A model generated the notes under the pieces. It was not told the DNA's origin, searched no databases, and saw only the letters and a list, made by a program, of their open reading frames with translations. 64,000 nucleotides of DNA from Dehalococcoidia bacterium (lineage in GTDB: Bacteria > Chloroflexota > Dehalococcoidia > Lucifugimonadales > UBA3495), in NCBI GenBank assembly GCA_965203985.1, contig CBDBDS010000006.1:16588-80587 (forward strand), read 5' to 3'. The position numbers were made by a program, and so were the translations under genes. Every line of letters begins with the position of its first letter. Position 1 is the stretch's first letter. Below are positions 5,228 through 19,617 of this stretch, one piece after another.

Positions 5228-8200
5228 TTATTGACCCGTCTGGCCGTCTCCCGACTCCGGCAGGGTGATGCTGGCGTGGACCCGCTCGCCCTTGCCGGCC
5301 TCGTTCTGCGCCCGCGCCCAGACCTGGTAGGTCTGGCCGGGTTGCAGGTTGTTGAATTTCACCTGCGTCTTCTTTGCCTTGGGCCGCTTGGTCGTGCCGC
5401 TGCCCTGCTGGCCTCCCTCGGGACGCAGGTGGACGATGTATCCATCGGGCGCGCCGCCAGTCTCAGGAGCGCTCCAGCTCACCGTTACACTGTTCTCCGC
5501 AGAGGCCGTCACCGTCAGGCCCGTCACCGGGCCGGGCAGTTCCACCCCCTGCTGCTGTGCGGCGGGCACCGTTACGTTGAAGGCGTCGCTGATGCTGTTG
5601 CCGTCGGAGTCCCGGGCCGTGACCGTGATGGTCGCGGTGCCAGCGGCCACGCCGATCACCGTGATGGCGGTTGCCGACCCGGTCGACGGGTCAATGGTAT
5701 TGGCGACCTGGACAACCGTGCTGTCCGAGGTGGTGGCGCTGATGGTCAGCGCATCCCCGTCGGCATCGCTGAAGACGCCGGACATTGAGACCTCGTGGGT
5801 CGCGTCAATCTCCAGTTCGCTCACGTCGGCGATGGCGCTGGCCACCACCGGGGCGGCCTTGACCGTGACGGTGAACGTGTCTTCCACAGACTCGCCGTTG
5901 CCGTCGGCCGCGGTCACCGTGATGTTCGCCGTCCCGCGAGACTGCGCGCTCACCGTCAACGTTGAGTAGTCGGCCGACACGGTTGCTGTGGCCACGCTGG
6001 TGCTGGACGACTCGGCCGTGATGGTCAGGTTGTCGGAGTCAGCGTCGCTGAACACGCCCGACAGGGACACCTGGCTGGTGCCGCTCCGGTTCACGATGGT
6101 CGCGTCGGCAATGGCGCTGGACACCGTGGGCGCGTTGTTGACCTTGATCACCGTTACGTCGAAAGCATCGCTGACGGTGTTGCCGTCGCTGTCCTGGGCC
6201 GTTACCGTGATGGTTGCCGTGCCCCCGCCCTTTCCGGTCAGGGTCAGGCCGGAGTAGTCGGCAGCCACGGCCACGGTGGCAACGGCGTCGTTTGACGAGT
6301 TCGCCGTAACGGTCAGGCTGTCGCCGTCGGCATCGTTGAAGACGCCGGACAGCGAAACCTTGTGCGTCGCATCAACCTCCAGTTCGCTCACGTCGGCGAT
6401 GGCCGAGGCCACCGTGGGCGCAGCTTTCACCGTCACGGTGAAACTGTCATCCACCGAGCCGCCGTTGCCGTCGTTGGCAGTTACCGTGATGGTCGCCGGG
6501 CCTTGCATCCACGGGCAGGAAGAGAACCGGCATGTCCCGCGCTTCTTCGCACTGACCGTCAGCGACGTCTGATCCGAGGCCACCGACACCGTCGCAATGG
6601 CCGTAGCCGACGACATGGCCGTTATCGTCAGGGAATCCTGGTCAGCATCGCCAAACACCCCGGACAGAGATACCTGGTGCGTCCCGCTTTCGTTGGCAAT
6701 GGTTGCGTCCGAGATGGCGCTTGCCACCGTGGGCGCGCTGTTGGCCTTGACGACCGTAACGTCGAAAGCGTCGCTGACCTGGTTGCCGGCGGGGTCCTGC
6801 GCGGTGACCGTGATCGTCGCCGTGCCCGCGGCCTTTCCGGCAAGGGTCAGAGTGGAGTAGTCAGCGGCCACGGCTGCCGTGGCCACAGCGTCGTTTGACG
6901 ACGCGGCGCTGAGCGTCAGCGCGTCGCCATCGGCGTCGGAGAACACGCCCGACAGCGAGATCTCCTGACTTGCGCCTACTTCAAGGCTGCTGATGTCGGC
7001 AATCGCTGATGCGACCGCCGGCTTCGCTTCGCGCGTCACCGTGACCGTGTAGGTCTGACGCTGGCCGTTGAACAGCGTCTTCACGACCAGGACGTTCTCG
7101 CCGACCGCCAGCGCGACCGCCGGACCGGTCCCGCCGCTGCTCACCTGGCTCTTTCCTTTCCCGTCGAGGCCTGTCGTGATCGTGAGATGCGGGTTCAGTG
7201 ACTTCGGTGTCAGCCGCGCGTGCGTCGTCCCGTGCGGAACCGTCGCCGCATAGGCGGTCGTGGCCGGCGCGAACGAGCCGATGTCCAGCGCCGTGAACGG
7301 GCCCTCCTCACCGGACGCGCCCTCCGCCGTCAGGGCGGACAGGCTCGTCGGCTCGTGGTTGTAGATCGTCCCGGTCCCCCGGTCCCTGCCCAGGACCGCG
7401 CCGTGCGGCGGATTGCCCAGCACCACGTAGAACGTCTCGCCCGAATCCTCCACATTGTCGTCGAGGATGCTGATGCACTTCTCCTTGCGCGTCTCGCCGG
7501 GATCGAACCCAATCGCCAGGGGGTGCGTGATCCCTCTGTAGTCCAGCCCGGCCGTCGCCGTGCCGTCCTCGGTCCAGTAGTTCACCCAGATCTCGTGCGA
7601 TGCCGCACGGTCCAGCGTGAATGCGAAGCACATCCTCGGATAGCCGTTCTCCATCTCCGTGCCCGAGGCGTCCGACACCGACACCCTGTGCGGATCGGCA
7701 TTCTCGTCGAGGACCTGCACTCTGGCGGTACTCTGGCTGCCTTTGGCATCCAGGGGTCTGGGTTTCGGCATCCGATGCCAGTCGACCGCGATCTGGTATT
7801 GCTTCATCTCCCCGTCTTCAAGCTGCGGCGCTGTGAGCTGGTGTGTACCGGTAGTCTGTCCGGCCGGGATGTCGATGTCGAAGGTCCCCGCCATCGCCGA
7901 ATAGAGCGGGATGCTGACCTCGCCCAGCGCCTCCGACAGCGTCGCCGTCACCGTGACCGGCGATCCCTCCTGCACAGGGCTCGGAGAGGCCGAGAGCGAG
8001 ACCGTGGGCGGATTGTAAGTCAGGTGGACCTGGACCCACCGGTTCTTGGTCCAGTTGGGAGCTGATACTAAACTGATTTGCGCGGAAGTAGCTGTAATAG
8101 TGTCCGCGTCCGCGACCGGAAACGGGTTACCGTCGAGATGCAGCGTCAGCCTCCGCCAAGCGGCATCGGCGATGCCTGTGGTAAATCCAAGATCCAGCGC

Positions 8201-9335
8201 GGCGAACCCGCCTCCAAAATTGTTGAGGGTCAACTGCTGGATCGTATTCGCAGTTCCCTTGTACGTGAAGCTGTTGGTCGTCAGCGCGGCGCTGCAGTTT
8301 GCAATCGTAGCTTCGCCGTCGTCGCATCCACGGAAAGTTCCGCTCGCATCCACCCGCAGCGTGGCGGACAACAGGATTTGGCTCCCGGGCGCGGGGGCGA
8401 ACTCCCTGACGGGCGGCGGCGCCGTGCCTGACGTCGTGCCCGTCACGAACGCCCAGTCGCCGCCGCCGGCGCTGTTCCTTGACCGCACCCGGAACCGGTA
8501 GGTGGTGCCGGGAGTGAGGTCGGAAATCGTCTTCTGTTGCGTACCGCTGATGAACGGGACCCGAAGCGGCACCCAGCCCGCCGAGGGGTACTGGAAGCCC
8601 GGGGGGTTGTCCAGGGCCTTCCACGTGTCGGGAACCAGGCCCCGATCCAGCACCGAGGTGTAGTGCAAGTCGTAGCCCGTCACCTCTGTCTCTGCACTTA
8701 AATTGATCGCCTCCACAATGTGCTTGGGCTCAAACCATTGGAGGAGCATATTTTCGTTGCCCGGGGTGACCCTGAAGTTCGTTGGCGGGGGTGGAGGGGC
8801 GGTGGCGTCCACGCTCACCTCGACCCAATCGCTGGCCGTCTTTGGCTGCGCGGAAACGGCCGATATCCTGAAAGCGTAGGAGTTCCGGTTGGTCACGACG
8901 GTGGTACCAACACCTTCATCTTCCTGGCCACCGGAAAACACGAACCTGGAAACGGAGGCTTCAGGTTCGTACTTGGAACCTGCCCGGTGTACTGGACTCC
9001 AAGCGCTGAAGGGAGAATAGCTAGCCCTCCACTGAATTTGGTAGCGTTCTGCTGTCCCATCGCCCCATGAGCTGGGAGCGTTCCAGTTCAGGGTAACCTG
9101 GTCGTCACCGCGTGTAGCGCGGAAGTTTCGGGGCGCCGAGGGCGGGTCGTTGGAAATCAAGCTCACCTGGACCTGCTGGCCGTCGCTCCAACTTAACTCT
9201 ACATTACTGAATTGCCATGCAATAGTCGATGACGACCCTTCTCCCGCGTCTAATAAAGGAAACGACTTGTCGCCGAGCTGAAACGCCAGGCGCCTCCAGT
9301 TGCTACCGAGCCCTCTAGGGTTGTCTTCTGCAGAG
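5228..9335 (-). pseudogene. C-terminal ~1370 codons of an interrupted giant surface protein (FN3, Calx-beta, five cadherin/Ig-like DADGD repeats, C-terminal FN3)
   Basis: The track ORF 5228..9166 starts at an internal GTG and has no signal peptide. The same frame stays open upstream to the transposon junction (...AEDNPRGLGSNWRRLAFQLGDKSFPLLDAGEGSSS...). Calx-beta signature: YWTEDGTATAGLDYRG...FDPGETRKEKCISILDDNVEDSGETFYVVL. FN3-like segments are present at both ends. Confidence 0.85.
5567..7030 (-). repeat. five tandem ~93-105-codon intragenic repeats (two alternating subtypes)
   Basis: Repeated protein blocks of the form P.VASAIAD.S.LEV.A.H.VSLSGVF.DADGD.LT..A.SS...VATV.V.ADYS.LTL.G...GTATITVTAQD..GN.VSDAFDVTV, alternating with a ...ATI.N.SGT.QVSLSGVF... 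subtype. Confidence 0.85.
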
Positions 9336-9336
9336 A

Positions 9337-9465
9337 CCGGCTTTGTCCTTAAATGGCCATTTCGGGACGCATTTCGAGACAGGGAATGGCTTTATGGGAC
9401 AGGACACATTCCTTTATGGGACAAGGCGCGCATTTTGGGACAACTAATTATCACTGTCCCAAAAT
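9337..9465. repeat. left-end repeat array of the transposon (terminal inverted copy, five direct copies, one inverted copy)
   Basis: CCATTTCGGGACG 9357-9369, GCATTTCGAGACA 9369-9381, GGCTTTATGGGACA 9388-9401, TCCTTTATGGGACA 9410-9423, GCATTTTGGGACA 9430-9442. One inverted copy: TGTCCCAAAAT 9455-9465. The terminal GGACAAAGCCGG is present in reverse complement at 9337-9348. Confidence 0.8.
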
Positions 9466-9555
9466 AGCATTTTGCAAGCAATTTCGCTAATGCGAGTAAT
9501 TTCAGTCCGCCGGCCTTTGCCCTCACATTGTCGGTGGGGATGGGCACTCCATATA

Positions 9556-9592
9556 GAAAAACCCCGCGGGCGAAAAGCCCCGCGGGGTTTTG
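9556..9592 (-). terminator. bidirectional rho-independent terminator after the Uma2 gene
   Basis: Stem CCCCGCGGGC (9562-9571) and GCCCCGCGGGG (9577-9587) with loop GAAAA. An A-run lies on one side and a T-run on the other, so it works on either strand. Confidence 0.75.
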
Positions 9593-9648
9593 TGACTGAT
9601 GTCCTGAGTACGCCATGAATGGGAATATCTGGGTTGAATAATGGAGCG

Positions 9649-10380
9649 TCAGTCCAAGGTCACACCCAGTTCCGCCAGCCGCTCCCGGAGTTGCTGGTTC
9701 TCCTGCTCGGCGGCGGCCCGCTCGTCTTCCGCTCTGCTCAGGTTGCGCAGCCAATCCCCCGTGCGTCGGTCAAAAAACCACAACTGATTGTGCGGCTCCG
9801 TATCAATGTCCACCCGCACGCACAGGTCCAGGTCCAGCACCTCGCTGCGGCCGCGCAGCATCCCGCCTGGCAGGTCAGCGATCACCGGAATAGGCTCCCA
9901 CTGGCCGTTGTCCAGGCGTTCACCGATGAGACGCTCGGGATACATGGTGCCCCCGGTGGGGTCGTAGCGCCAGTATTCCCTGACGCCGATTTCAGCATAC
10001 AGGTCTCGCTTCTCTCCCCGGTCCCGTTCCACCGTGCCCTCGGCGGCAAACTCCATCACTAAGTCGGGCGCTCCACCGTGAACCCAGGTCAACCATGGAT
10101 GGTCCGCGTCCGTGAAATCGGTCTCCACCGCCACGTAGATGTTGGGTGCCAACCGCCGTGCAGGGACACCCTCCACGAAGTACACGAACTGGTCCATGCC
10201 GACATACACCCTCGGGTTGTCCTGGTAACGCACCCGCAGGATCGAATAGCAGTCGGTCATCACGATCTTCTGGGGCGGCTTGCCGGGCATAGGCTCTCCA
10301 TCTTCGGCAGGATAGAGGATTCCGACCGGGTGAGCGCCGTTCAGGTCGGTTGAACTGGATAGTCTCACCTCTGTGGTCAT
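9649..10380 (-). CDS. Uma2-family (DUF820) putative endonuclease
   Basis: Family hallmark APDLVMEFAAEGTVERDRGEKRDLYAEIGVREYWRYDP. The start at 10380 is preferred over 10419 because GGAGGTG lies 5 nt upstream. Confidence 0.8.
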   Translation of the reverse strand: MTTEVRLSSSTDLNGAHPVGILYPAEDGEPMPGKPPQKIVMTDCYSILRVRYQDNPRVYVGMDQFVYFVEGVPARRLAPNIYVAVETDFTDADHPWLTWVHGGAPDLVMEFAAEGTVERDRGEKRDLYAEIGVREYWRYDPTGGTMYPERLIGERLDNGQWEPIPVIADLPGGMLRGRSEVLDLDLCVRVDIDTEPHNQLWFFDRRTGDWLRNLSRAEDERAAAEQENQQLRERLAELGVTLD

Positions 10381-10453
10381 ATCGTCACCTCCGTTTAGTG
10401 TGCCGTCATCATACCGCACCCAACGCTGGATAGACTATGATGTTCTCCGTTGG

Positions 10454-10891
10454 TCAGTCGCACATCTTGCTGGCGGGGATAATCGTGACGTCGGGGCCCA
10501 CAAAGACCCTGACCCAGTTCCGCGGCCCCTTGCCAGCGTCGTTCTTGCCCCGCACGTAGAGGGTCCAGTAGCCCTCGGACAAGTTGCGGAATGTAACCTC
10601 CCGTTTCTTGGCCTTGAGTCGCTTGACCTGTCCCGGTCCCATTTCGTCCTTGTTCTGCGGCTTGGCCCAGACGATCCACTTCTTGACCTCGCCTCCGTCC
10701 TCGGGCAAGGCCCAGCCGATGGTCGCGTGGTCGAGCATGGGCTGGACCTTCTCGAAGCACGGCACCCACCCCGGCCGTTCGTTCGTGCCCTCGGCGTCGG
10801 CAACCCGCACGCTGCCGAAGACACCCGCGGCCATCAAGCCCAGGATGAGGCTGAAGATGACACCGTTTCGCGTGGTGATAGTGGTGAACAT
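10454..10891 (-). CDS. secreted single-FN3-domain protein
   Basis: N-terminal signal peptide (VIFSLILGLMAAGVFGSVRVADA). The FN3-like body resembles the C-terminal FN3 of the giant protein (KRLKAKKREVTFRNLSEGYWTLYVRGKNDAGKG). GAGGAGG SD upstream. Confidence 0.7.
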   Translation of the reverse strand: MFTTITTRNGVIFSLILGLMAAGVFGSVRVADAEGTNERPGWVPCFEKVQPMLDHATIGWALPEDGGEVKKWIVWAKPQNKDEMGPGQVKRLKAKKREVTFRNLSEGYWTLYVRGKNDAGKGPRNWVRVFVGPDVTIIPASKMCD

Positions 10892-11133
10892 GATTTCCTC
10901 CTCATGGGGTCATGAATTCGGTACCTGGCAGGTTTGGCCTCGCACAATTCTGCTTAGACGACCACCACCGTTTGACTTTCCTTGCGTTTTATGCAGCTTA
11001 TGACGTGCGATGGGTGGGCATCTAAAGCGCGCCTTAATCCAGCACGCGGAGAAGATCATGATTTTCGGATTGACCACGTGCCAAAGCGTGGTTGCCATAG
11101 TATTGTCTGGGACCTTTGTGGCGTTGATAGCGG

Positions 11134-11322
11134 TTATGTTCCTAACCATAGAAAGACGGCTAGAAAGACGAAAATCAAAGTCGCCACAAACGTCAGAGCC
11201 ACCCAACCGAAACCCATCCCGTTGACGATGTACACGACACAGCAGCCCCCTGACGAGGCAGCAAATACGAGCAACATCGCACCAATTGATCGGAGAACCG
11301 TTTGTCGGTGATTCATACGCAC
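11134..11322 (-). CDS. small two-TM membrane protein (hypothetical)
   Basis: 62-aa ORF with two hydrophobic helices in a lower-GC patch, co-oriented with its neighbours. A competing plus-strand ORF 11010..11225 exists. Confidence 0.35.
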   Translation of the reverse strand: MRMNHRQTVLRSIGAMLLVFAASSGGCCVVYIVNGMGFGWVALTFVATLIFVFLAVFLWLGT

Positions 11323-11353
11323 ATCTGGTCAGCAGGGTAATGTCTGCACGGTA

Positions 11354-12514
11354 TCACAGTCGGATCGCCTGGCAGTGGGACAGGACCAAGCGGATTCCCG
11401 TGATATCCCACTTCGCCACGGTGTGTACCGGCTGGCCCGGGCTCGTAATCGTCGCGGTCAGCACCGGCCGTTTGGCTCCCACCTCAAACGGCTGCGAGAA
11501 AACTTCTCGAATCGCCATACGCAACTCACCCAGCGATCCGGGGTTAATCTCAGTGCGGTCGGACAGAAGGATCCATTCGCCCCCGATGTTTGCCAGGGGC
11601 GGCGGGCCGTACTTGGGTGGCTTCTCGGGGTTGATGGTGTCTACATAGAAGGCGAGGCTGATGCGCACGCTCCGGTGGGTCCGGCTACGGAGCAGGTCCA
11701 CCAGCATCTGTGGGGTGGGTTCGCCATCAAGGGACGGGGACCCTGTGCCGACAAACCAACGGTCTTCCACCTCGTCCCAAATCTCGTCCAGGTCATCCTG
11801 ATCCCTGGGCGTCAACCGAAGCTCGTCCATAAACTCGATCAGTCCATCGGTGTATTCCAGCAGGGCGTAGTAGGGGATGTCGCGATATTGGCTGAAAGGG
11901 TCACGAGATGAATTTGGGCGTTCCGATGACGCCGCCGTGATGGGGTGGTGCCAGTTGATGTACATCGTGCGGCGGCCGCGGTAGTCACACTCGTAGGTGA
12001 GCGTTGGTGGTCGGTCTCCAAACTCGTAGTCCAGGGCCTCGATCTGGAACAAATATTTGTCCAGTTGAGCGTATTGTTTTCGCTCCATTCTCCAGGGGTG
12101 GAACCGTGACGTTTCCGGAGATATCGGCGTGGGAGTTGGAGCCGCAGTCGGGGCCGGAGTCTGGACGGGCTCGGGCGTAGCGGTGGGGGTGTCCGACGGG
12201 CTGACGGTAGGAGCGGGTGCTGGGGTCGGCGTGGCTTCCGCGGTCCGGGTGACTGGCACCTCGCGGGTTACCTCGACGGTCTGTGGGACTGCCACTTCGC
12301 GAGTGACTTCAAGCGTTTCTTGGACCACGACGGTGACGGGAACTTCCTTTGTCACCGGCACCTCGCGGGTGATCTCGACAGTATTATTCACCTCCACGGT
12401 GACCGGCACCTCGCGCGTGACTTCCACTTCGAGTATTTCCGGCTGCCCGGTGCATCCCACTGCGGCCAGTAGCAGGGCCACACTGATAGAGACGATGGTG
12501 GTTCTGGTCAGCAT
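11354..12514 (-). CDS. lipoprotein with EVTREVPVT tandem repeats and a Pro/Thr/Ala linker
   Basis: Lipobox LLAAVGC after a signal sequence. It has repeated (E)VTREVPVT units. AAGGAG SD upstream. Confidence 0.7.
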   Translation of the reverse strand: MLTRTTIVSISVALLLAAVGCTGQPEILEVEVTREVPVTVEVNNTVEITREVPVTKEVPVTVVVQETLEVTREVAVPQTVEVTREVPVTRTAEATPTPAPAPTVSPSDTPTATPEPVQTPAPTAAPTPTPISPETSRFHPWRMERKQYAQLDKYLFQIEALDYEFGDRPPTLTYECDYRGRRTMYINWHHPITAASSERPNSSRDPFSQYRDIPYYALLEYTDGLIEFMDELRLTPRDQDDLDEIWDEVEDRWFVGTGSPSLDGEPTPQMLVDLLRSRTHRSVRISLAFYVDTINPEKPPKYGPPPLANIGGEWILLSDRTEINPGSLGELRMAIREVFSQPFEVGAKRPVLTATITSPGQPVHTVAKWDITGIRLVLSHCQAIRL

Positions 12515-12548
12515 CGATGTACTCCTTCGATGTGGTGCTCGTTGATAG

Positions 12549-14288
12549 TTATGAGTGCCAGCACACGACGATGCCGTCGGTGCGCAGGGCGCAGGTCTTA
12601 TGTAAGCCAGTGCTTACCGCTTTGAAAATGCCGTCTGTGGGAGTGTCTTCTATTTGGTGGTCATAGCCCCAACAAACCAATTTGCCATCGGTTCCAACCC
12701 CGCAATTGACGAACTCAGACGCGCTCACGGACTGGAATGTGCCGGCAGGAGGCGGAAACTCAGTGTACCCCCAACAGAAAATACGCCCGTCCGTCATGAC
12801 CCCGCAGGCGTGATTGCCTGCGGTGGAAACTGAGCGGAAGGTTCCCTGAGGTGATGGGATGCCACGGCCCCAGCAGTAGATACGTCCGTCTGTCAGTACC
12901 CCGCAGGTGTGGTAGTACGCTCCAGCGCTAACGGACTGAAAAGTGCCTGTGGGCGATTCTGTCGCGCCTTGATTGTTTTTACCCCAGCACTCCACTATGC
13001 CATTGGGCCGTACTCCGCAGGTGTAATCCCCGCCGGCGCTTATAGATGAGAAAGCACCAGATGGAGGATTGGCCTGGCCGTCAGTGTTCGCACCCCAACA
13101 GGACACTTCGCCGGTCACCGTAATGCCGCACGCATGGTCCCAACCCGAACTCACAGTTGTGAATTTTCCAGTCGGAGGTACCGCTGCGTCGTCGTATGTT
13201 GGGCTCCAGCACTTGATATCGCCGTCTGTCAGCACTCCGCAGACGAAACCATGGCCAACACTGATCGACTGAAAAGTTCCCGCCCGTGGTGTTTCACGGT
13301 ATTCCGGCTCCCAGCATACGATGTTGTCATCGGTTTGCAGTCCGCAGATTTGCCATCCGACCTCTACCGACGAAAAGGTGGTGGTCTGCGGTATTTTCCA
13401 ATCGTACTCTGCTGCACTCCAGCATGCGACAGTGCCGTCCGTCCGTATCCCGCAACTGTACGACCTGCCAACGCTGATGTTTTGAAACGTTCCATGCGGC
13501 ACTAGAGAGGATGTTTGCTGACCGTTACTCCAACAAACGACCTCGCCGTCAGTCAGTAGGCCACAGGTGTACGACGACACGATACCCGGGTTTGAGTTCA
13601 CGTTGACCGACGTGCTGACCGACTGGAAATGTCCATCGGGCAAAGTTGTTGGGCCATGATAGCCTTGCCCCCAGCACTTGATGGTCCCGTCAACCTTGAC
13701 CCCGCAACTGTATGCACTGCCTGCGCTGACCGCAAGAAAAGAACCGGCTGGAGGTGTAGCCTGCCCGGCATCGTTCATTCCCCAGCATTCGATGCTGCCA
13801 TCTTTCTGCTTTATGGCACAGTTGTGCTGATGGCCTGAAGAGACGGCTTGAAACACTCCGTCGGGCGGTGTCGAGGCACCTTGATAGTTTCTACCCCAGC
13901 AATCGATAGTGCCGTCCATTCGCAATCCGCAGGTATGGTCAGTACCGGCGCTCACGGATGCGAATTGCCCCGTAGGAGGAGTCGCTTCCCCGTATCGGCC
14001 AATGTCAAATCTGGCCACGCACTCTACGGTGCCATAAGTCGTCAATCTGCAGTAGTGAGAATCGCCTACACTAAGGGGTTGGAGTTGTCGTTGGGGACCA
14101 GGCGCAACGACAGTATTCGTTGGCGCAGGAGTGTTGGTCACCGCCTCTTCCGGGTCAGCATCGGCGTTGTTTGGATCATGCGACGGAATGGTCCCGTCAT
14201 AGCAAGCCAGCAGGGCCATGACCATAAGGCAGACGAACGTACTCCGAGAAACGATCGCGGCCGACTCCCGCGGCCTGCGTCGGATCAC
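12549..14288 (-). CDS. RCC1-repeat (beta-propeller) lipoprotein
   Basis: More than 10 repeats of the type G.V.CWG.N..GQ..PP.G.F..VS.G..H.CG. A GTG at 14288 gives the signal MIRRRPRESAAIVSRSTFVCLMVMALLAC (lipobox LLAC). The track ORF start at 14720 is an over-extension. Confidence 0.8.
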   Translation of the reverse strand: MIRRRPRESAAIVSRSTFVCLMVMALLACYDGTIPSHDPNNADADPEEAVTNTPAPTNTVVAPGPQRQLQPLSVGDSHYCRLTTYGTVECVARFDIGRYGEATPPTGQFASVSAGTDHTCGLRMDGTIDCWGRNYQGASTPPDGVFQAVSSGHQHNCAIKQKDGSIECWGMNDAGQATPPAGSFLAVSAGSAYSCGVKVDGTIKCWGQGYHGPTTLPDGHFQSVSTSVNVNSNPGIVSSYTCGLLTDGEVVCWSNGQQTSSLVPHGTFQNISVGRSYSCGIRTDGTVACWSAAEYDWKIPQTTTFSSVEVGWQICGLQTDDNIVCWEPEYRETPRAGTFQSISVGHGFVCGVLTDGDIKCWSPTYDDAAVPPTGKFTTVSSGWDHACGITVTGEVSCWGANTDGQANPPSGAFSSISAGGDYTCGVRPNGIVECWGKNNQGATESPTGTFQSVSAGAYYHTCGVLTDGRIYCWGRGIPSPQGTFRSVSTAGNHACGVMTDGRIFCWGYTEFPPPAGTFQSVSASEFVNCGVGTDGKLVCWGYDHQIEDTPTDGIFKAVSTGLHKTCALRTDGIVVCWHS

Positions 14289-14628
14289 GTCTCGGTGTAC
14301 GGAATGGATGAAGCGTGGCACGTGGCACCTCCCTTGCGAACGCCAGGTAGGGGTACTTGCCACAGCATCCCAAAGCCTCGCACAAACTCCACAAGGAAGG
14401 CACGGAGGCCCCTTGTTGGCGCAACGATTCATGCGAGGTACGCCCCTGAGACAATTCCGACAGGGACGCACGGCAAGGTATTTAGGATGCTGTGGCGTTG
14501 CCACGATAGCGCGGCGTTCTATCAGTGTCAACGCCGGTCCGCCCTGTGGAAATATCGCCCTGAAGAATGGAGTAGCGGAATCAGTTCCTTTCAAGGCTGC
14601 GCCAAATCCCTGCGACTTCGAACTAACG

Positions 14629-14946
14629 TCATCCCTTCTGGACCGATAGGCGCTGCCAGAGGCGGCAGACCACCCAGGCGGTTGCGGCGCTTGGGATTGG
14701 CAACGCAAAAACGCCCGCATCGGTCACCAGGTTGTTGGGAAGAGTGAGGACCACGATCCAATACCACCCGATGGAGCAGGCCACCCCTACCGTTCCTCCC
14801 ACCAATCCGGCGACCGGGCCCTTTTGCCAGGTCATGCCTGCCATGCGCCGGACGGACGTCAAAATGGTCACCAATGCCGGAACGCACGTCCGGAGTAGCA
14901 CCAGCCACCAGAGGAAAAACAGCAGGAAGAAATAGGTGCTCATCAC
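14629..14946 (-). CDS. small membrane protein (about 3 TM), hypothetical
   Basis: 105-aa hydrophobic ORF (MMSTYFFLLFFLWWLVLL...). It occupies the space freed once the RCC1 gene start is moved to 14288. Confidence 0.45.
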   Translation of the reverse strand: MMSTYFFLLFFLWWLVLLRTCVPALVTILTSVRRMAGMTWQKGPVAGLVGGTVGVACSIGWYWIVVLTLPNNLVTDAGVFALPIPSAATAWVVCRLWQRLSVQKG

Positions 14947-15189
14947 GCTTGCACGGATCTGAATGCCGGCGTCGGCCCAAGTCCCGGCCGCAGGTCATTA
15001 GATGAGAGTGTCCTGCTGGACGTGAGTCAACGAGCGTTCATCTGACCTGCGGCCTTGCACTCCTTGGCGGTCATGAGCAGATTGCGCCGCGCTGCGATGC
15101 CCAAGCCTTGACAAGCGGAGCAGTGGGTGTTGAGAAATCGGTTCGAGTCCGATTTGACAGCTGTAAACCAGTCAGTTTACGGTACAGTT

Positions 15190-15221
15190 GCGGCAGGGGA
15201 ATTTGCAGACTCCCCTGCCGC
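15190..15221. other. perfect 11-bp GC-rich stem-loop upstream of the transposase
   Basis: GCGGCAGGGGA (15190-15200), 10-nt loop, TCCCCTGCCGC (15211-15221). No U-tract on either strand. Confidence 0.6.
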
Positions 15222-15433
15222 GATCAACCGGAGCAGGTTCTGCCGTAACGCCGTCCCCGCTCCCTGGAGGTGAGAGCTATGCTGCATCGCATAGCCGCTC
15301 TGCAGTGGATGAGGCGGTGTCGGCCTCTTCCATCACTGCGGATCAGTTTACCCATTCCCGGCATCGACGCAAGTCCCGGGTGTCAGCACGCGGGCGATGG
15401 CATCGGATACGCCATTTTTGACGCGCGTCAAAA

Positions 15434-17650
15434 ATGGGACGGTTTCCAGTTGGCGAGTGCTCCACATGCTCCCCTGGAATCGCGCATTGGCGGGAGGGGG
15501 TGTGCATGACGACTCCACCTGGGGCGTCAACGGTGGCGGGCCGCACAAATGTCAGACAGCCGGATCGTCGCCGTCGTGTGAGGTCAGCAGAGCACAAGGC
15601 TCGCAGGGCTGTGAAGGAAAAGAGGCGGCGCGTTGACCTAAAGACAAGGGGCCTATGCAAGGGTTGCATGGATCCCGTGCCGTCCGGGCACACCTACTGT
15701 GATCGGTGCCGCGCCGCAGCACGGGATCGTCGGGCTGACCTGAAGCGGCGAGGGATATGTGTCAGGTGTAAGGGAGCTGTATCTACCGAACGGGTCCATT
15801 GCGATGAGTGCCTCGCCGCAATGCGGGAGGTGCGAGCCGCACGCAAGCAACAGTTGCTGGATGACCTCATGCAGGCCGCTCAAACTGCGAAGGCTTCTGA
15901 GTCACCCTCGGAGACCCTTGACAAGGATAGTACGACGCACTTTGTTGACACGAACGAATGTGCGTATAATGTAGATCAGCAAAACGGCACCGCCGGGCGT
16001 TCACAGCGCCCCGCGGTGCCTGGTCCACTGGAGAGTGAAGGTCTCCTGCGGCCTGGTGGCAGTGTAAAACGGTCAACCGCGGTTAGCAAGCCGCGCAATT
16101 GCGTTTCGTGCCCACGCGATGGGTCTGCACAGTGCCAACTCTCCAAAACATCTTTGGATTTGGGAGGGATGGTACTGATGATAGTCACACCGCGGTATCC
16201 CACCGTCGCACCATGGCCAGGACCGGATGACGGCGACGAAGGTCGTACTGAGAGAGGCTGGCATATCGCTGCCTGCACGCCGTTCGTGAAAGTACCTGGC
16301 GGTTGGGTTACTCAGTCGCAGACGGACCCGAACGTGCGTTACCACCTGTCGTTGGACCAAGACGGAGCCTACTGTAGTTGCCCGGACCAAGCGGCGTCCT
16401 GCAAGCACATCAAGGGCCTTGAGTTCGTGCTGGAGCGGGAACGGCAGGCCGAAGGGATGATCGCTTCCATACCTGCGGCGCAATCGATACGGGGTCAAGG
16501 ACCTCCAGTCGGACATCAAAAGCCGCCCCATCGAGATGGCAACCGTGACGGCTCGGCCACCGCTGGCACACCGTCCATGGACCTCGATGCGCCAATCCGT
16601 GAGATAGGCGAACGTAGTCCTCGCGGGCCGGATTCGCCGGCACGGAAGAGGATTGCACCGGGTACAGAGGATCGCAAACGACCCACATACCAGCAGGACT
16701 GGCCGGTCTACAATTCGGCGCAAAGAAATGAAAAGGCTCATTTCCGCCATTTGTTGCGCGACCTGGTGGCGCTGGTGGAGGAACCGGTTCATCAGAGAGG
16801 CCGTCGGCCCCATTCATACGCTACCCAGATTTTTGGCTTGGTCTACCAGCAGTACGTGGGCAAGAGTTTGCGAAGATTCGATACTGACCTGCGCGAGGCG
16901 TGCCACAACCATTTCGTCGACGCAGCGCCAAGCACGAGCGCTCTGGCACGGCACATGGACGACCCTGCCTTGACTCCTATTCTGCATGACCTGGTCCTGT
17001 GCAGTGCTCTTCCAATGCGGGGATATGAACGCCGTTTTGCCATCGATGCGACCGGATTCAGCAGCGATAGATTCGCACGTTGGTTCAGCGAAAAATGGGG
17101 GAAGATCAAAGAGCACCGGACTCGTGATTGGGCCAAGCTCCATCTTATCTGTGGTACGGAAACGCAGATCATCACGTGCGCTGAAGTCTCCGATTGGCGT
17201 GACCACGACAACAGGTATTTTGCGCCGCTGGTGGCCGAAACTGCGGCGCATTTCGATGTGCACCAAGTCGCGGCAGACAAGGCGTATACGAGCAGGCGAA
17301 ACATGGTACAGGTGGACGGATTGGGCGCTGCGTTATTCGCGCCCTTCAAGAGCAATGTGGTACCGCCTGTCGCCACTGACGATTCGGCTTGGGCGCGTAT
17401 GCTCCGCCGATTCTTGACGGATTACGAGGGGTGGGCCGACGACTATCACGTACGGAGCAATGTCGAATCCGCCATATCGAGGATGAAGCGGCTTTTCGGA
17501 GACGAACTAAGGTGTCGCAACGTGGTGGCGCAATGCAATGAACTGATGTGCAGAGTCATTGCGCACAACCTAGTCGTTGTCATCTACCAGATGTACGAGC
17601 GCGGCTTGGTGACGGAATCACAACACCCAGAGTTGACGACCGCTGCGTGA
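15434..17650 (+). CDS. DDE transposase (IS4/IS5-type catalytic domain) with SWIM zinc finger and N-terminal double zinc-ribbon
   Basis: The C-terminal signature YHVRSNVESAISRMK fits Y-2-R-3-E-6-K. D-containing blocks FAIDATGF and VAADKAYTS are present. SWIM-like CSCPDQAASCKHIKG. Two CxxC...CxxC motifs near the N-terminus. A start at 15506 (GGGAGGGGG SD) is more likely than 15434. Confidence 0.85.
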   Translation: MGRFPVGECSTCSPGIAHWREGVCMTTPPGASTVAGRTNVRQPDRRRRVRSAEHKARRAVKEKRRRVDLKTRGLCKGCMDPVPSGHTYCDRCRAAARDRRADLKRRGICVRCKGAVSTERVHCDECLAAMREVRAARKQQLLDDLMQAAQTAKASESPSETLDKDSTTHFVDTNECAYNVDQQNGTAGRSQRPAVPGPLESEGLLRPGGSVKRSTAVSKPRNCVSCPRDGSAQCQLSKTSLDLGGMVLMIVTPRYPTVAPWPGPDDGDEGRTERGWHIAACTPFVKVPGGWVTQSQTDPNVRYHLSLDQDGAYCSCPDQAASCKHIKGLEFVLERERQAEGMIASIPAAQSIRGQGPPVGHQKPPHRDGNRDGSATAGTPSMDLDAPIREIGERSPRGPDSPARKRIAPGTEDRKRPTYQQDWPVYNSAQRNEKAHFRHLLRDLVALVEEPVHQRGRRPHSYATQIFGLVYQQYVGKSLRRFDTDLREACHNHFVDAAPSTSALARHMDDPALTPILHDLVLCSALPMRGYERRFAIDATGFSSDRFARWFSEKWGKIKEHRTRDWAKLHLICGTETQIITCAEVSDWRDHDNRYFAPLVAETAAHFDVHQVAADKAYTSRRNMVQVDGLGAALFAPFKSNVVPPVATDDSAWARMLRRFLTDYEGWADDYHVRSNVESAISRMKRLFGDELRCRNVVAQCNELMCRVIAHNLVVVIYQMYERGLVTESQHPELTTAA

Positions 17651-17695
17651 CGCATCGAGCGCTATCACGCGCTCGGTTTCCACCGAGGTCGGTCT

Positions 17696-17739
17696 AGTGA
17701 GGCCGATTGGCAACAGCGAGGTTCCCAATCGGCCTCACT
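17696..17739 (+). other. perfect 15-bp stem-loop after the transposase gene
   Basis: AGTGAGGCCGATTGG (17696-17710), 14-nt loop, CCAATCGGCCTCACT (17725-17739). No U-tract, so the terminator role is uncertain. Confidence 0.5.
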
Positions 17740-17795
17740 GATATTCGCTCGATTGATCCTGGCAGGCGGTCTACCCGCGGCTGGACGGCCGCTTT

Positions 17796-17934
17796 TATTA
17801 TGGGACAGATTGGCCTGCATTTCGGGACAAGCCAGCCCATTTCGGGACAGGGTGTATCATTATGGGACAGACCCAGGCCATTACGGGACAGACCAGCCCA
17901 TTATGGGACGAACGGGTGTTTTTAGACAAAGCCG
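17796..17934. repeat. right-end repeat array of the transposon (seven direct copies, ~20-bp period)
   Basis: The GGGAC cores start at 17802, 17824, 17844, 17864, 17885 and 17905. A degenerate terminal copy (TAGAC) lies at 17923. Consensus is CCATTATGGGACAG, and all copies are on the plus strand. Confidence 0.85.
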
Positions 17935-18256
17935 CAGAGCCCCCTAATTCTGTGAAGCTAACAACCAATGTTTTTTCGCCACTGTCATATACAAGCTCTC
18001 CAACAACAAGGGTATATCCCTCATACGGAAATCTGTCGGGCGTCAGCGCAGCATCGCAAGCGGCCATTTGAGAAGTGCCGCCACTGCAACCAAACTGCGT
18101 GTTGATGCCTGTGTGCTGATCCATCGTCAGCGTGCCGGTCCAGATGGTGGTCTGCGCCTCGGCATGCGCGGGGGCGAACAGCGAGAGCGCGCCGAGCAGT
18201 AGCGCGAGGAGGGGAAGAAGGGAGAGACGGCGGAGGATTAGGCTAGAGCGAAAGTC
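17935..18256 (-). pseudogene. N-proximal piece of the interrupted surface-protein gene (signal peptide + start of first domain)
   Basis: This piece is in frame with ORF 17798..18124. It reads DFRSSLILRRLSLLPLLALLLGALSLFAPAHAEAQTTIWTGTL...VSFTELGGSA. The apparent C-terminus (17798-17934) is read-through into the transposon repeat array. Confidence 0.8.
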
Positions 18257-18271: not shown

Positions 18272-19617
18272 CTTAGAGGGGTAGGTAAGCGGTGTTACGG
18301 GGGCGCATGATGGGTGATCTCCAAGCCTTCCTTGGGTTCCGGCCAGGGCTCGGGCAGCAGCCAGACGCGGCTCCAGAGACGACCCTTGAGCATCAGCCGC
18401 CTGAGCCAGTTGATGCCGTGGCGGATCACGCTGACGGTGCGCGCCGGGCGAGTCCGAGGGTCCCGGTGATTGGAAGCCACTGCCTTGGGCGGCGCCCGCA
18501 GGTTGCCTGGGGCAATGCCGAGGTCATTGGCGTCCTCCACCCTGGTGCCGTAGCCCAGGGCCAGCAGCGTCGCCACCGAAAGCACCAGCCAGTGGCGGGA
18601 GATGCGGGTAGGGTCCGTTCTCCTGGTCTTGTCCCACTTCCAGCCCAGGCTCTTGAGGGCCTTGAAGCCCAGCTCGATCCAGAAGCGCAGGGCGTACCAA
18701 CTGGGTCCCACCTTATCGGGCGCCAGGTCGGTGAGGATGATCCAGGGTTCTTCCTGCTCGGCGTACCAGACGGCCAGCAGGGTGCAACGGCGCTGGGCGG
18801 TTGGGGCGCCGAAGGCGGTGCCACGGCCAATCCAGGCCGTGTCGGGAACGGAGACGAAGCGCTGGGCGGGCAATCGTTTGCCGCCGTCGGCGCAGAAGGT
18901 GATGTTCTTCCGGTAGCGCATACAGGGATGCCAGCCCTGGGCGCGTATTTGTTGCCACAGCTTGGGACTGGATATGCCCCGGTCGCAGAGGACGATTACG
19001 GTCATTCCCTTTGGAACCGCTGGGGCCAGTTCCCTGAGCAGTTCCACCGTGGGGTCCATCCAGGAGCCTTTCTGGGTGGCGCGGTGGATGCTCCAGGCCA
19101 CGGGAATGGCGCAACTGCGATAGACCACGCTGATGACGATGGCAGTGGTCTGGTCGCCCTTGAGCGTGGGGTCAATGGCCAGGGCGAGACGCTCGGAACG
19201 CCACCAGGCGAGCACCCATCGGAGCAGGGGCGCGAAGCAGAGAGTTACGTCCAGTTGGGTCTGGCAGGGACTGGTCCGGTCGCTGCCGTCGTAGAGCCAT
19301 TCGCGGAGATACTGGCGCAGGTTGTTCCACTTGTGCCAGGGGGAGAGGGCGGAGGCGACGGCGTTCTGACAGGCGCTGCCGGCCAGGATGGCTCCGCAAA
19401 CCCACAGCGCCAGACCGGTCAATTGTGGCTGGGAGAGGTGAGGTAAATGAGTTTCAATAGTCTGCTGAATCTGATAAGTTTCTCTGGGAAGGCGCATCGG
19501 GGGTCTCCTGCATCTGGGCGTGTGAAGAACACCAGAATGCCGGAAGCCGATGCGCCTTCCCAAGTTGATTCCAGAGCCAATTTCAAGGCAATTTCAGCCT
19601 TTACCTACCCCTCTAAG
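18272..19617 (-). mobile_element. IS4-family insertion sequence (1346 bp)
   Basis: 17-bp perfect terminal inverted repeats: CTTAGAGGGGTAGGTAA at 18272-18288 and its reverse complement at 19601-19617. Single transposase ORF. Flanked by G15 and G13. Confidence 0.85.
18295..19563 (-). CDS. IS4-family DDE transposase
   Basis: 422-aa ORF with LALAIDPT, VLCDRG and YALRFWIELGFKALK (Y-2-R-3-E-6-K). The true start is possibly the internal MRLPRETYQ (19497). Confidence 0.85.
   Translation of the reverse strand: MGRRIGFRHSGVLHTPRCRRPPMRLPRETYQIQQTIETHLPHLSQPQLTGLALWVCGAILAGSACQNAVASALSPWHKWNNLRQYLREWLYDGSDRTSPCQTQLDVTLCFAPLLRWVLAWWRSERLALAIDPTLKGDQTTAIVISVVYRSCAIPVAWSIHRATQKGSWMDPTVELLRELAPAVPKGMTVIVLCDRGISSPKLWQQIRAQGWHPCMRYRKNITFCADGGKRLPAQRFVSVPDTAWIGRGTAFGAPTAQRRCTLLAVWYAEQEEPWIILTDLAPDKVGPSWYALRFWIELGFKALKSLGWKWDKTRRTDPTRISRHWLVLSVATLLALGYGTRVEDANDLGIAPGNLRAPPKAVASNHRDPRTRPARTVSVIRHGINWLRRLMLKGRLWSRVWLLPEPWPEPKEGLEITHHAPP

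What the first reader, a model, noticed from the sequence alone, without database searches (positions are those of the whole stretch)
9330..17939. 8.6-kb cargo transposon with asymmetric arrays of ~20-bp-spaced GGGACA repeats and a DDE+SWIM+zinc-ribbon transposase
Both flanks carry the direct repeat (G)CAGAG (9330-9335 and 17934-17939). They also carry a 10-bp terminal inverted repeat (CGGCTTTGTC at 9338-9347, GACAAAGCCG at 17925-17934). Removing the element and one repeat copy gives GGC TCT GCA GAA GAC on the minus strand. This is in frame on both sides (VSFTELGGSA|EDNPRGLGSNWRRL), so this is a genuine insertion.

The ends are unusual. The right end has seven same-orientation copies of CCATTATGGGACAG with a 20-22 bp period, about two helical turns. 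The outermost degenerate copy forms the terminus.

The left end has the terminal copy in the expected inverted orientation. Its five subterminal copies, however, point the same way as those at the right end. One further copy is inverted.

The only transposase candidate has an IS4-type Y-2-R-3-E-6-K signature. It also has a SWIM finger and two N-terminal CxxC...CxxC ribbons. The 6 kb of cargo is all surface or secreted proteins (FN3, repeat lipoprotein, RCC1 lipoprotein) plus a Uma2 endonuclease.

I do not recognise this end architecture from described bacterial IS4/IS5 elements. It is more reminiscent of the multi-site ends of Tn7/Mu, or of the subterminal repeats of eukaryotic MULE/hAT elements.
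Basis: partly seen in the sequence, partly recalled or inferred. Interest (0 to 1): 0.8.

Follow-up and report, generated by a model that had tools for sequence, protein, structure and literature searches.

The report
IS903-like cargo transposon, multi-site ends
This is a real 8.6-kb mobile element sitting inside a surface-protein gene; its cutting enzyme is a distant relative of the well-known IS903 transposase, but its two ends carry unusual, unequal arrays of extra binding-site-like repeats that are shared by an undescribed group of relatives.

Summary
The element spans 9339-17933 (8595 bp). Its termini are GGCTTTGTC / GACAAAGCC. Removing the element restores one 1563-codon frame.

Residues 421-738 of the transposase form a complete IS903-type (IS5 family) enzyme. 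They are 29-30% identical to IS903B, whose first 8 terminal bases are the same. In front sits a roughly 420-aa extension holding a SWIM-like finger and zinc ribbons.

Nineteen further complete relatives from genomes and metagenomes carry the same termini. Eighteen have perfect 9-bp duplications and one has 8 of 9. One is an 18.1-kb SAR202 element.

Most of these relatives have two unlike end types. In "alpha", copies sit at about 6, 24 and 44 nt, all oriented like the terminal copy. In "beta", the terminal copy is followed by an oppositely oriented copy at about 34 nt. In the window's Chloroflexota subfamily both arrays are expanded, to 7-8 and 6-7 copies. They sit at near-identical positions in relatives whose transposases are only about 50% identical.

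Relatives without SWIM also have multi-site ends, so the repeats do not depend on that domain.

Verdict: a new variant of a known kind, of moderate interest.

The parts
9330..9338 (.). Left copy of the 9-bp target-site duplication (GCAGAGACC)
   Evidence: Matches 17934-17942 in 8 of 9 positions and lies directly next to the terminus. Eighteen relatives have perfect 9-bp duplications at the same position.
9339..9470 (+). 'Beta' end. The terminal copy GGCTTTGTCCTTAAAT comes first. Oppositely oriented copies follow at about 21, 33, 53, 75 and 94 nt from the tip, then one copy in the terminal orientation at about 118 nt.
   Evidence: The SAR202 element has nearly the same positions (7S, 21O, 33O, 53O, 73O, 93O). 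L085 and L054 have the same design.
9558..9592 (.). G+C-rich hairpin with A and T runs on either side (terminator-like), downstream of the Uma2 gene
   Evidence: Read directly (AAAAACCCCGCGGGCGAAAAGCCCCGCGGGGTTTTG). Its function is inferred.
9649..10419 (-). Cargo: Uma2-family putative endonuclease (256 aa)
   Evidence: Pfam PF05685, E 6e-13, 49 bits against a cut-off of 27.
10454..10891 (-). Cargo: small secreted protein with an FN3-like C-terminal part (145 aa)
   Evidence: The translation shows a signal-peptide-like N-terminus and an FN3-like motif. This was judged by eye; no family search was run on this ORF.
11354..12514 (-). Cargo: repeat-containing lipoprotein (386 aa)
   Evidence: Lipobox LLAAVGC and EVTREVPVT repeats in the translation. 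No Pfam or NCBIfam hit.
12549..14321 (-). Cargo: RCC1-repeat lipoprotein. The likely start is the GTG at 14321, giving 590 aa.
   Evidence: Pfam RCC1_2, E 1e-59, 8 repeats. The GTG lies 7 nt after GGGAGG and is followed by a signal peptide and lipobox.
14322..14545 (-). Conserved structured 5' leader in front of the RCC1 lipoprotein gene (a side finding)
   Evidence: 78% DNA identity to L085; also present in L001 and L003. Fold z-score -4.5. 14 of 60 pairs show compensatory changes. No Rfam match.
15102..15505 (+). Conserved upstream region of the transposase gene. It holds TTGACA, a GTAAAC...GTTTAC palindrome and a hairpin.
   Evidence: DNA homology to L001 and L003 begins exactly at 15102. 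Sequences read. A promoter role is inferred; the consensus scan did not flag it.
15434..17650 (+). Transposase, 738 codons from the first ATG. The probable true start is M25 at 15506 (714 aa), as in NCBI's call P0001 and relatives P0003, P0004 and P0009.
   Evidence: - Pfam DDE_Tnp_1, residues 533-713.
- NCBIfam IS5_2, residues 423-714, 117 bits against a cut-off of 140.
- Invariant D538, D615, E678, Y671, R674, K685 and C316, C323, H325; C314 is nearly invariant.
- SWIM 16.9 bits against a cut-off of 19.6. Double zinc ribbon 21.8 bits against 27.3.
- IS903B is the best match, 29-30% identical over 92-99% of residues 421-738.
17696..17739 (+). 19-bp-stem hairpin after the transposase stop codon; also present in the sequences of L001-L003
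   Evidence: Inverted repeat I10, 95% complementary. The same sequence is seen. Its function is inferred (terminator or insulator).
17777..17933 (+). 'Alpha' end. A short hairpin (17777-17792) is followed by six subterminal copies and the terminal copy. All point the same way, at about 128, 106, 86, 66, 45, 25 and 7 nt from the tip, ending in ...GACAAAGCC.
   Evidence: The same array with 5-8 copies occurs in L001, L002, L003 and SAR202.
17934..17942 (.). Right copy of the 9-bp target-site duplication (GCAGAGCCC)
5228..9338 (-). Downstream part of the interrupted host gene, a giant secreted FN3/Big_2/Calx-beta/cadherin-like protein
   Evidence: Pfam hits. Continuous frame with 17943-18240 after in-silico excision.
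17943..18240 (-). Upstream part of the interrupted host gene: signal peptide and first half of the N-terminal domain. The 5' limit is approximate.
   Evidence: A paralogous domain at 8329-8006 aligns over both halves.

Best explanation
The region is one autonomous, cargo-carrying transposon. It belongs to an undescribed clade that is sister to, or a deep branch of, the IS903 group of the IS5 family.

Shown here:
- Its single DDE transposase cuts at the GGCTTTGTC termini and joins them to a 9-bp staggered target cut, which gives the 9-bp duplication.
- In this window it landed in the N-terminal domain of a giant surface-protein gene and split it.
- Each end has one cleavable terminal copy of a roughly 12-nt motif, (C)ATTTYGGGACA fused to AAGCC.
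- Each end also has several cleavage-incompetent copies of the same motif, spaced about 20 bp apart (two helical turns).

Inferred:
- These copies are transposase-binding sites. The probable reader is the helical N-terminal part of the IS903-like core (about residues 423-530), because relatives that lack the SWIM and zinc-ribbon extension have them too.
- The two ends are built differently. In alpha all copies are co-oriented with the tip. In beta the inner copies are inverted relative to the tip.
- This would load different oligomers on the two ends, so that only an alpha-beta pair makes a productive synapse. It is an end-discrimination device like those of Mu and Tn7.
- The expanded arrays and the extra roughly 420-aa N-terminal region (SWIM-like finger, one or two zinc ribbons) of the Chloroflexota subfamily probably add cooperative binding or oligomerisation.
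- Cargo sits between the beta end and the transposase promoter and is swapped freely between relatives.
For: Insertion:
- 9-bp duplication, 8 of 9 identical, abutting the conserved termini.
- Excision restores a 1563-codon frame.
- An internal paralogous domain spans the junction at E 1e-9.

Family:
- Residues 421-738 align end to end with IS903B transposases, 29-30% identical.
- They also align with NF033579 positions 3-288 of 289.
- IS903B ends start with GGCTTTGT, identical to this element.
- The catalytic D, D, E and YREK residues are invariant in 16 relatives.
- The model shows an RNase H-like core.

Mobility of the clade:
- 19 further complete elements of 2.7-18.1 kb, 18 with perfect 9-bp duplications and one with 8 of 9 (L092).
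- These include the 18,153-bp SAR202 element (GTCTGGATG on both sides).
- They also include L085 (CATGCTTGA on both sides).

The repeats belong to the transposition machinery:
- They occur only at the ends.
- The terminal copy is one of them.
- In L085 both terminal and subterminal copies changed together to TTYTGCGACA. Each metagenomic relative likewise has its own motif at the same positions.
- Positions are conserved between the window and SAR202, whose transposases are 52-53% identical.

The alpha/beta design is common in the clade. SWIM-less relatives also have multi-site ends. IS903B itself has only the terminal copy.
Against: - No empty-site allele or ortholog of the target domain was found.
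- The duplication has one mismatch, so the insertion is not fresh. Activity of this copy is unproven.
- Only one copy lies in the 64-kb window, and the rest of the genome could not be retrieved.
- Binding of the transposase to the repeats, and any role of the alpha/beta difference in synapsis, is inference from anatomy and co-variation. No experiment exists.
- L001-L003 show no beta end within 10 kb upstream. Their completeness is therefore unknown.
- All clade transposases score below NCBI's IS5 equivalog cut-off, 91-117 bits against 140. Placement inside the IS903 group, rather than beside it, is open.
- The 9-bp duplication of IS903 itself is recalled from the literature. The two complete IS903B copies read here (L086, L168) had unequal flanks.
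Confidence: 0.8

Rival explanations
1. The 8.6 kb is not one unit. An ordinary insertion sequence (transposase plus right array) happens to lie 6 kb from an unrelated or decayed solo end. The 'cargo' is simply host DNA between them.
For: A solo beta-type end with no transposase within 8 kb exists in a Dehalococcoidia genome (L054). L001-L003 show no second end within 10 kb. DNA homology to close relatives covers only 15102-17933.
Against: The 9-bp duplication flanks exactly the outer tips, and joint removal restores the host reading frame and domain. The same beta - cargo - transposase - alpha layout with perfect duplications is found in SAR202 (18.1 kb) and L085 (8.5 kb). A 2.8-kb insertion sequence alone would leave no such duplication at 9330-9338.
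Confidence: 0.05
2. The subterminal repeats are not used for transposition. They would be operator or iteron sites for regulation (for example of outward or inward transcription), or binding sites for a host or cargo-encoded protein.
For: The alpha array lies next to conserved hairpins (17696-17739 and 17777-17792). An inward promoter-like match overlaps the alpha tip, though promoter-like matches are no more frequent than in shuffled sequence. Unrelated genomes hold GGGACA arrays of 18-21 bp period that look like iterons.
Against: The repeat is the same sequence as the inner part of the cleaved terminus and changes together with it in every subfamily. Cargo is not conserved, so no cargo protein can be the common reader. 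Positions relative to the tips are fixed across the clade.
Confidence: 0.1
3. The SWIM finger and zinc ribbons of the N-terminal extension are the readers of the GGGACA repeats. The core then binds only the tip.
For: The largest arrays (5-8 copies) are found only in the subfamily whose enzymes all carry the SWIM-like module. SWIM fingers occur in MULE transposases (PMC6446971).
Against: Relatives with a 323-aa enzyme and no SWIM (L099, L102, L110, L134, L135, L143, L148, L164) still have 2-3 sites per end. SAR202-type short enzymes have SWIM but no ribbons, yet keep 5-6 copies per end. SWIM-bearing metagenomic relatives have only 2-3 sites. The window's SWIM and ribbon matches are below Pfam cut-offs.
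Confidence: 0.2

Closest known systems
IS903 / IS903B (IS5 family, IS903 group)
   Same: - Full-length alignment of the catalytic and DNA-binding core, 29-30% identical.
- DDE plus Y-2-R-3-E-6-K motifs.
- Identical first 8 terminal bases, GGCTTTGT.
- 9-bp target duplication. For this clade it was measured here. For IS903 it comes from established knowledge (Grindley and Joyce 1980; ISfinder), recalled and not verified here.
   Different: - IS903 is 1,057 bp with one 307-aa protein and simple 18-bp inverted repeats. It has no subterminal copies and no cargo.
- The window element is 8,595 bp with about 6 kb of cargo and a 714-738-aa enzyme carrying a roughly 420-aa N-terminal extension.
- It has 6-7 motif copies per end in two unlike arrangements.
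- It scores below the NCBIfam IS5 equivalog cut-off.
Tn7, phage Mu, Tn402/Tn5053, Tn552, IS21 (elements with arrayed transposase-binding sites at structurally different ends)
   Same: There are several transposase-site copies per end. The left and right ends are not equivalent. Some sites are inverted relative to the tip. The elements carry cargo. This comparison of design rests on my own knowledge of those systems.
   Different: Those elements use retroviral-integrase-type (rve) transposases, mostly with an ATPase partner, and make 5-bp duplications. Here a single DDE_Tnp_1 (IS4/IS5-type) enzyme makes a 9-bp duplication, and no ATPase or second transposition gene is conserved next to it.
Eukaryotic PIF/Harbinger transposons (IS5-related)
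   Same: The catalytic domain is related to IS5. Subterminal repeats serve as binding sites that recruit the transposase (from my own knowledge).
   Different: In Harbinger a separate Myb-like protein reads the subterminal repeats, and the duplication is 3 bp. Here there is one protein and a 9-bp duplication.
Eukaryotic Mutator-like elements (MULEs)
   Same: SWIM fingers are frequent in MULE transposases, and duplications are 8-11 bp, mostly 9 bp (PMC6446971). MULE terminal repeats are long.
   Different: MULE catalytic domains are related to IS256, not IS5 (PMC6446971). No homology beyond the short SWIM motif was found. From my own knowledge, the SWIM finger of MuDR-type transposases lies C-terminal to the catalytic domain, whereas here it is N-terminal.

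Membership tests
IS5 family, IS903 group | DDE_Tnp_1-type transposase with the catalytic D, D, E and the Y-2-R-3-E-6-K signature | tested here: met
   Pfam PF01609, E 4e-16. D538, D615, E678, Y671, R674 and K685 are invariant in 16 relatives.
IS5 family, IS903 group | Transposase recognised by the curated IS5-family model | tested here: inconclusive
   NF033579 is by far the best model and is covered end to end (positions 3-288 of 289). The score is 117 bits against a cut-off of 140. All clade members score 91-117 bits.
IS5 family, IS903 group | Closest characterised transposase is IS903 | tested here: met
   In tblastn against 72,556 plasmids, the listed best matches are almost all annotated as IS903B family transposase, 29-30% identical over 92-99% of the query.
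IS5 family, IS903 group | Termini beginning GGC (IS903: GGCTTTGT...) | tested here: met
   Window GGCTTTGTC / GACAAAGCC. IS903B GGCTTTGTTGAATAAATC.
IS5 family, IS903 group | 9-bp target-site duplication | tested here: met
   8 of 9 in the window. 9 of 9 in 18 relatives, including SAR202 and L085.
IS5 family, IS903 group | Compact insertion sequence: about 1 kb, one ORF, a single short inverted repeat at each end | tested here: not met
   8,595 bp, with five or more cargo genes and 6-7 motif copies per end. IS903B has one copy per end.
Tn7-like / Mu-like transposons | rve-type (retroviral integrase-like) transposase, TnsB or MuA | tested here: not met
   The only transposase is DDE_Tnp_1. There is no rve hit in the element.
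Tn7-like / Mu-like transposons | AAA+ regulator (TnsC or MuB) and a 5-bp duplication | tested here: not met
   No ATPase gene lies in the element. The duplication is 9 bp.
Composite transposon | Cargo bracketed by two copies of an insertion sequence | tested here: not met
   There is one transposase gene. The far end is a roughly 130-bp array only.
Mutator-like elements / IS256 family | IS256/MuDR-type catalytic domain | tested here: not met
   There is no IS256 or MULE family hit. The best models are IS5, IS1182 and IS4.
SWIM zinc-finger domain (PF04434) | CxCxnCxH motif scoring above the Pfam gathering threshold | tested here: inconclusive
   The window scores 16.9 bits against a cut-off of 19.6. 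Relative P0016 scores 28.8 bits. C316, C323 and H325 are invariant and C314 is nearly invariant.

The most novel reading that the evidence does not exclude
A clade of IS5/IS903-type (DDE_Tnp_1) transposons has independently evolved a Mu/Tn7-style higher-order transpososome.

In this reading, phased arrays of oriented binding sites nucleate different transposase oligomers on an 'alpha' and a 'beta' end. This enforces alpha-beta pairing and makes the element behave as a directional, large-cargo carrier of up to 18 kb. The SWIM-like and zinc-ribbon extension would act as the oligomerisation or array-reading module.

The recurring exact 9-bp abutment of different family members would then reflect end-directed targeting.
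Probability: 0.25. Interest if true: 0.7.

Novelty: new variant of a known kind. Interest (0 to 1): 0.5.

Why it matters
Multi-site, functionally unequal ends are known from Mu, Tn7, Tn402 and IS21. All of these use integrase-type enzymes with helper ATPases. To my knowledge IS4/IS5-type enzymes have been described only with a single short inverted repeat per end (Tn5, Tn10, IS903). Three literature searches found no description of SWIM-bearing IS5-type enzymes or of subterminal site arrays in this group.

A whole clade of IS903 relatives with a conserved alpha/beta end design, and cargo up to 18 kb, would therefore matter in three ways:
- It would be a second, independent route to end discrimination.
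- It is a simple one-protein system in which to study that route.
- It would add a new class of unit transposons that annotation pipelines currently miss, since all members fall below the IS5 model cut-off.

The clade is numerous in soil and aquatic metagenomes, with more than 500 loci. In Chloroflexota it moves surface-protein and lipoprotein genes.

Tried and rejected
- Empty site: a protein search with 276 aa spanning the junction found nothing at E <= 1e-3. No DNA search for the rejoined site was therefore possible.
- P0001, the window's own gene, is not retrievable. The rest of the genome and its copy number are unknown.
- The array-pattern scan of 185,579 genomes gave 77 stretches. Only three belong to this family: SAR202 twice and Dehalococcoidia L054. 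The rest are unrelated tandem repeats or iteron-like arrays.
- Beta ends of L001-L003 were not found within 10 kb upstream, either with exact termini, a motif score or blastn.
- The AlphaFold model has mean pLDDT 58.9. The N-terminal half is mostly below 50. Foldseek returns only generic integrase/RNase H-like cores at low TM-scores, so it says nothing about the extension.
- The IS903B copies read in plasmids had unequal 9-bp flanks, so IS903's own duplication length could not be re-measured here.
- Literature searches for SWIM with IS5, and for IS903 with subterminal sites, found nothing relevant.
- The promoter and terminator scan found no more matches than in shuffled sequence.
- The idea that the element is 'IS4-type' was rejected: the IS5_2 model scores 117 bits against 37 for IS4_1.
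- The idea that the small ORF 14591-14998 is a conserved partner gene was rejected. It shows no evident similarity to the ORF at the same place in L001 (translations compared by eye; no tblastn hit in relatives).
Full report
**1. What is in the sequence**

- The right end holds six + strand copies of ATTNYGGGAC(A/G), starting at 17796, 17818, 17838, 17858, 17879 and 17899.
- A seventh, degenerate copy forms the tip (...TTTTTAGACAAAGCC, ending at 17933).
- The left end starts with the same motif inverted (GGCTTTGTCCTTAAAT, from 9339).
- Five + strand copies follow at 9358, 9370, 9390, 9412 and 9431, then one - strand copy at 9454.
- The motif ATTNHGGGACR occurs 11 times in the window against 0.65 expected, and nine of these lie in the two ends.
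- Cutting the element out restores a single 1563-codon frame on the minus strand.

**2. Corrected boundaries**

Relatives show where the element really ends. A SAR202 genome contig (MPNC01000015.1) carries a complete relative. It reads GTCTGGATG|GGCTTTGTCCC... at the left and ...GGACAAAGCC|GTCTGGATG at the right, 18,153 bp apart.

Applying the same rule to the window gives:
- element 9339-17933 (8,595 bp);
- a 9-bp duplication, GCAGAGACC / GCAGAGCCC, identical at 8 of 9 positions.

No empty-site allele or ortholog of the target domain was found. However, a second copy of that domain inside the same gene (8329-8006) aligns across both sides of the junction at E 1e-9. The two flanks are therefore one gene and one domain.

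**3. The enzyme**

The ORF 15434-17650 has 738 codons. Its likely start is M25, giving 714 aa as in P0001. It has three parts.
- Residues about 70-125 hold two CxxC...CxxC units. The Pfam double zinc ribbon scores 21.8 bits, below the cut-off of 27.3. Most relatives have one unit, and the short forms have none.
- Residues about 255-345 hold the conserved motif PTVAPWPGPDDGDEGR and a CxCx6CxH finger. The window scores 16.9 bits for SWIM, below the cut-off of 19.6. Relative P0016 scores 28.8 bits.
- Residues 423-714 match the whole NCBIfam IS5_2 model (positions 3-288 of 289) at 117 bits, against a cut-off of 140.

D538, D615, E678 and Y671-x2-R674-x3-E678-x6-K685 are invariant.

In tblastn of residues 421-738 against 72,556 plasmids, the listed best matches are almost all annotated as IS903B transposase, 29-30% identical over 92-99% of the query. 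IS903B ends read from a plasmid start with GGCTTTGTTGAATAAATC. The first eight bases are therefore identical to this element.

Together with the 9-bp duplication, this ties the element to the IS903 group of the IS5 family, not to IS4. IS903's own 9-bp duplication is established knowledge that I recall; it was not re-measured here.

The AlphaFold model is confident only in the catalytic half. It matches generic RNase H-like integrase cores.

**4. The family**

A word-indexed search found only 18 close homologs. A pattern-based scan of JGI metagenomes found more than 500 loci at about 38-44% identity. Some of these match from residue about 269 (SWIM plus core). Others match only from about 416 (core alone).

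Among the loci held, 19 further complete elements of 2.7-18.1 kb have GGC(T/C)TTG...CAA(A/G)GCC tips. Eighteen have perfect 9-bp duplications and one (L092) has 8 of 9. All clade enzymes tested score 91-117 bits on the IS5_2 model, below its cut-off. This probably explains why the source databases give them no name.

**5. End architecture**

Each element has its own 10-12-nt motif. It forms the inner part of both tips and recurs subterminally. Two end types recur.
- Alpha: copies at about 6, 24 and 44 nt, all oriented like the tip.
- Beta: the tip copy, then an oppositely oriented copy at about 34 nt, often followed by a co-oriented one at about 55 nt.

In most relatives the order is alpha - (cargo) - transposase - beta.

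In the window's subfamily (window, SAR202, L085) the order is beta - cargo - transposase - alpha, and both arrays are expanded.
- Alpha copies lie at 7, 25, 45, 66, 86, 106 and 128 nt.
- Beta copies lie at 7 (same orientation), 21, 33, 53, 75 and 94 (opposite) and 118 (same).

SAR202 has nearly the same positions, although its enzyme is only 52-53% identical. In L085 the tip and all subterminal copies changed together to TTYTGCGACA.

It is real and conserved, and it is simply the beta design.

IS903B has no subterminal copies.

Relatives with a plain 323-aa enzyme, such as L099, a 2.66-kb element with a MazF-like passenger (judged by eye from the translation), also have multi-site ends. The sites therefore cannot depend on SWIM or the ribbons.

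**6. Cargo**

In the window:
- a Uma2 nuclease (9649-10419);
- a small FN3-like secreted protein (10454-10891);
- a repeat lipoprotein (11354-12514);
- an RCC1-repeat lipoprotein (12549-14321).

Cargo differs completely between relatives.
- The SAR202 element carries discoidin-like (F5/8 type C, faint Pfam hits), FN3 and collagen-like proteins and a KilA-N/BstA protein.
- In L001 and L003 no beta end was found, so the genes upstream of the transposase may or may not be cargo. They include trypsin-RCC1, SecA-like and LppX proteins in L001, and FN3 proteins, TnpB and Uma2 in L003.
- DNA homology with close relatives starts only at 15102, about 400 bp upstream of the probable start codon.
- RCC1-repeat genes recur.

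**7. How it most likely works**

Shown:
- A single IS903-type DDE enzyme is present.
- The tips are defined.
- The target cut is a 9-bp stagger.
- The clade has been mobile repeatedly.

Inferred:
- The subterminal copies are transposase-binding sites without a cleavage site, phased on one DNA face (20 bp is about two turns).
- The unlike alpha and beta arrays load different oligomers, so that only alpha-beta pairs synapse. This would work as in Mu and Tn7.
- The N-terminal extension adds cooperativity.

Rivals:
- The element is an accidental pair of an insertion sequence and a solo end (0.05).
- The repeats are regulatory or host-factor sites (0.1).
- The zinc domains are the repeat readers (0.2).

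Each rival is weighed in its own entry.

**8. Comparison and novelty**

The element meets the enzymatic and end-chemistry criteria of the IS5/IS903 group. It fails the 'compact insertion sequence with simple inverted repeats' criterion and the curated model cut-off.

It only resembles Tn7, Mu and Tn402 in design. It shares no integrase-type enzyme, no ATPase and no 5-bp duplication with them. With MULEs it shares only a SWIM motif and the duplication length (PMC6446971).

Literature searches found no description of SWIM-bearing IS5-type enzymes or of subterminal site arrays in this group. I rate it a new variant of a known kind, with interest 0.5.

**9. Limits**

- Nothing has been tested experimentally.
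- This copy's activity is unknown.
- The genome copy number is unknown.
- L001-L003 are incomplete in the data held.
- The exact phylogenetic position relative to ISfinder subgroups was not determined.

Noticed in passing
window 14322-14545 (minus strand); L085 9268-9490 (-); L001 9190-9411 (-); L003 6319-6518 (+): A roughly 225-nt structured leader lies directly 5' of the RCC1 lipoprotein gene.
- It is 78% identical in DNA to L085, although the transposases are only 47% identical.
- The fold z-score is -4.5 on the minus strand.
- 14 of 60 predicted pairs show compensatory changes among three sequences.
- Its 3' end is GGGAGG, then 7 nt, then the GTG or ATG start of a gene in the window, L085 and L003. 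By eye these genes encode secreted or lipoproteins.
- No Rfam family matches.

It is a candidate new cis-regulatory RNA travelling in the cargo.
   Followed up: partly
L105 11269/11279; L132 2018/2028; L134 4797/4807; L148 80/90 and 3793/3803: Neighbouring elements of the clade lie head to tail, separated by exactly 9 bp. In L105 the two neighbours are clearly different elements, with different motifs. The spacer doubles as the shared target duplication. A gap of 9 bp is the commonest among 15 close end pairs. This suggests insertion right next to an existing end.
   Followed up: partly
window 18295-19563 (minus strand): A second, unrelated transposase gene (422 aa) lies just upstream of the interrupted surface-protein gene. 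It matches NCBIfam IS4_2 at 105 bits, below the cut-off of 152, and Pfam DDE_Tnp_1. Its ends were not looked for.
   Followed up: no
L020 4470-5160 and L053 7560-7940 (Litchfieldia sinesaloumensis NZ_LT732529.1, 3.02 Mb): Blocks of six TTTATGGGACA copies at an exact 21-bp period recur every 269-290 bp. No relative of this transposase lies within the 8-kb blocks. The motif is the same but the context is unknown. Similar 4-copy arrays occur in Hymenobacter, Pasteurellaceae and Escherichia, and these look like iterons.
   Followed up: partly
L054 5674-5756 (Dehalococcoidia OZ220731.1, about 2,245,700): A solo beta-type end (tip plus three inverted copies) has an RCC1-repeat gene inside it but no transposase within 8 kb. 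It lies 1.9 Mb from the genome's only family transposase, P0014.
   Followed up: partly
L085 12730-14866: The Dehalococcoidia relative (8,503 bp, perfect duplication CATGCTTGA) has its transposase 3' end fused or cut by a nested rve/Mu-type transposase gene (12988-14448, minus strand). The called 909-aa product P0014 is therefore chimeric at its C-terminus.
   Followed up: partly
window 15270-15505: The region just upstream of the probable transposase start is conserved with L001 and L003, where it is translated as an N-terminal extension (P0002 785 aa, P0007 812 aa). In the window it lies in a different frame from the ORF. It is either a conserved leader or an ancestral N-terminus lost by a frameshift.
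   Followed up: no
window 9649-10419 and 23515-23934: The cargo Uma2 nuclease has a 36%-identical paralog elsewhere in the window, outside the element.
   Followed up: no
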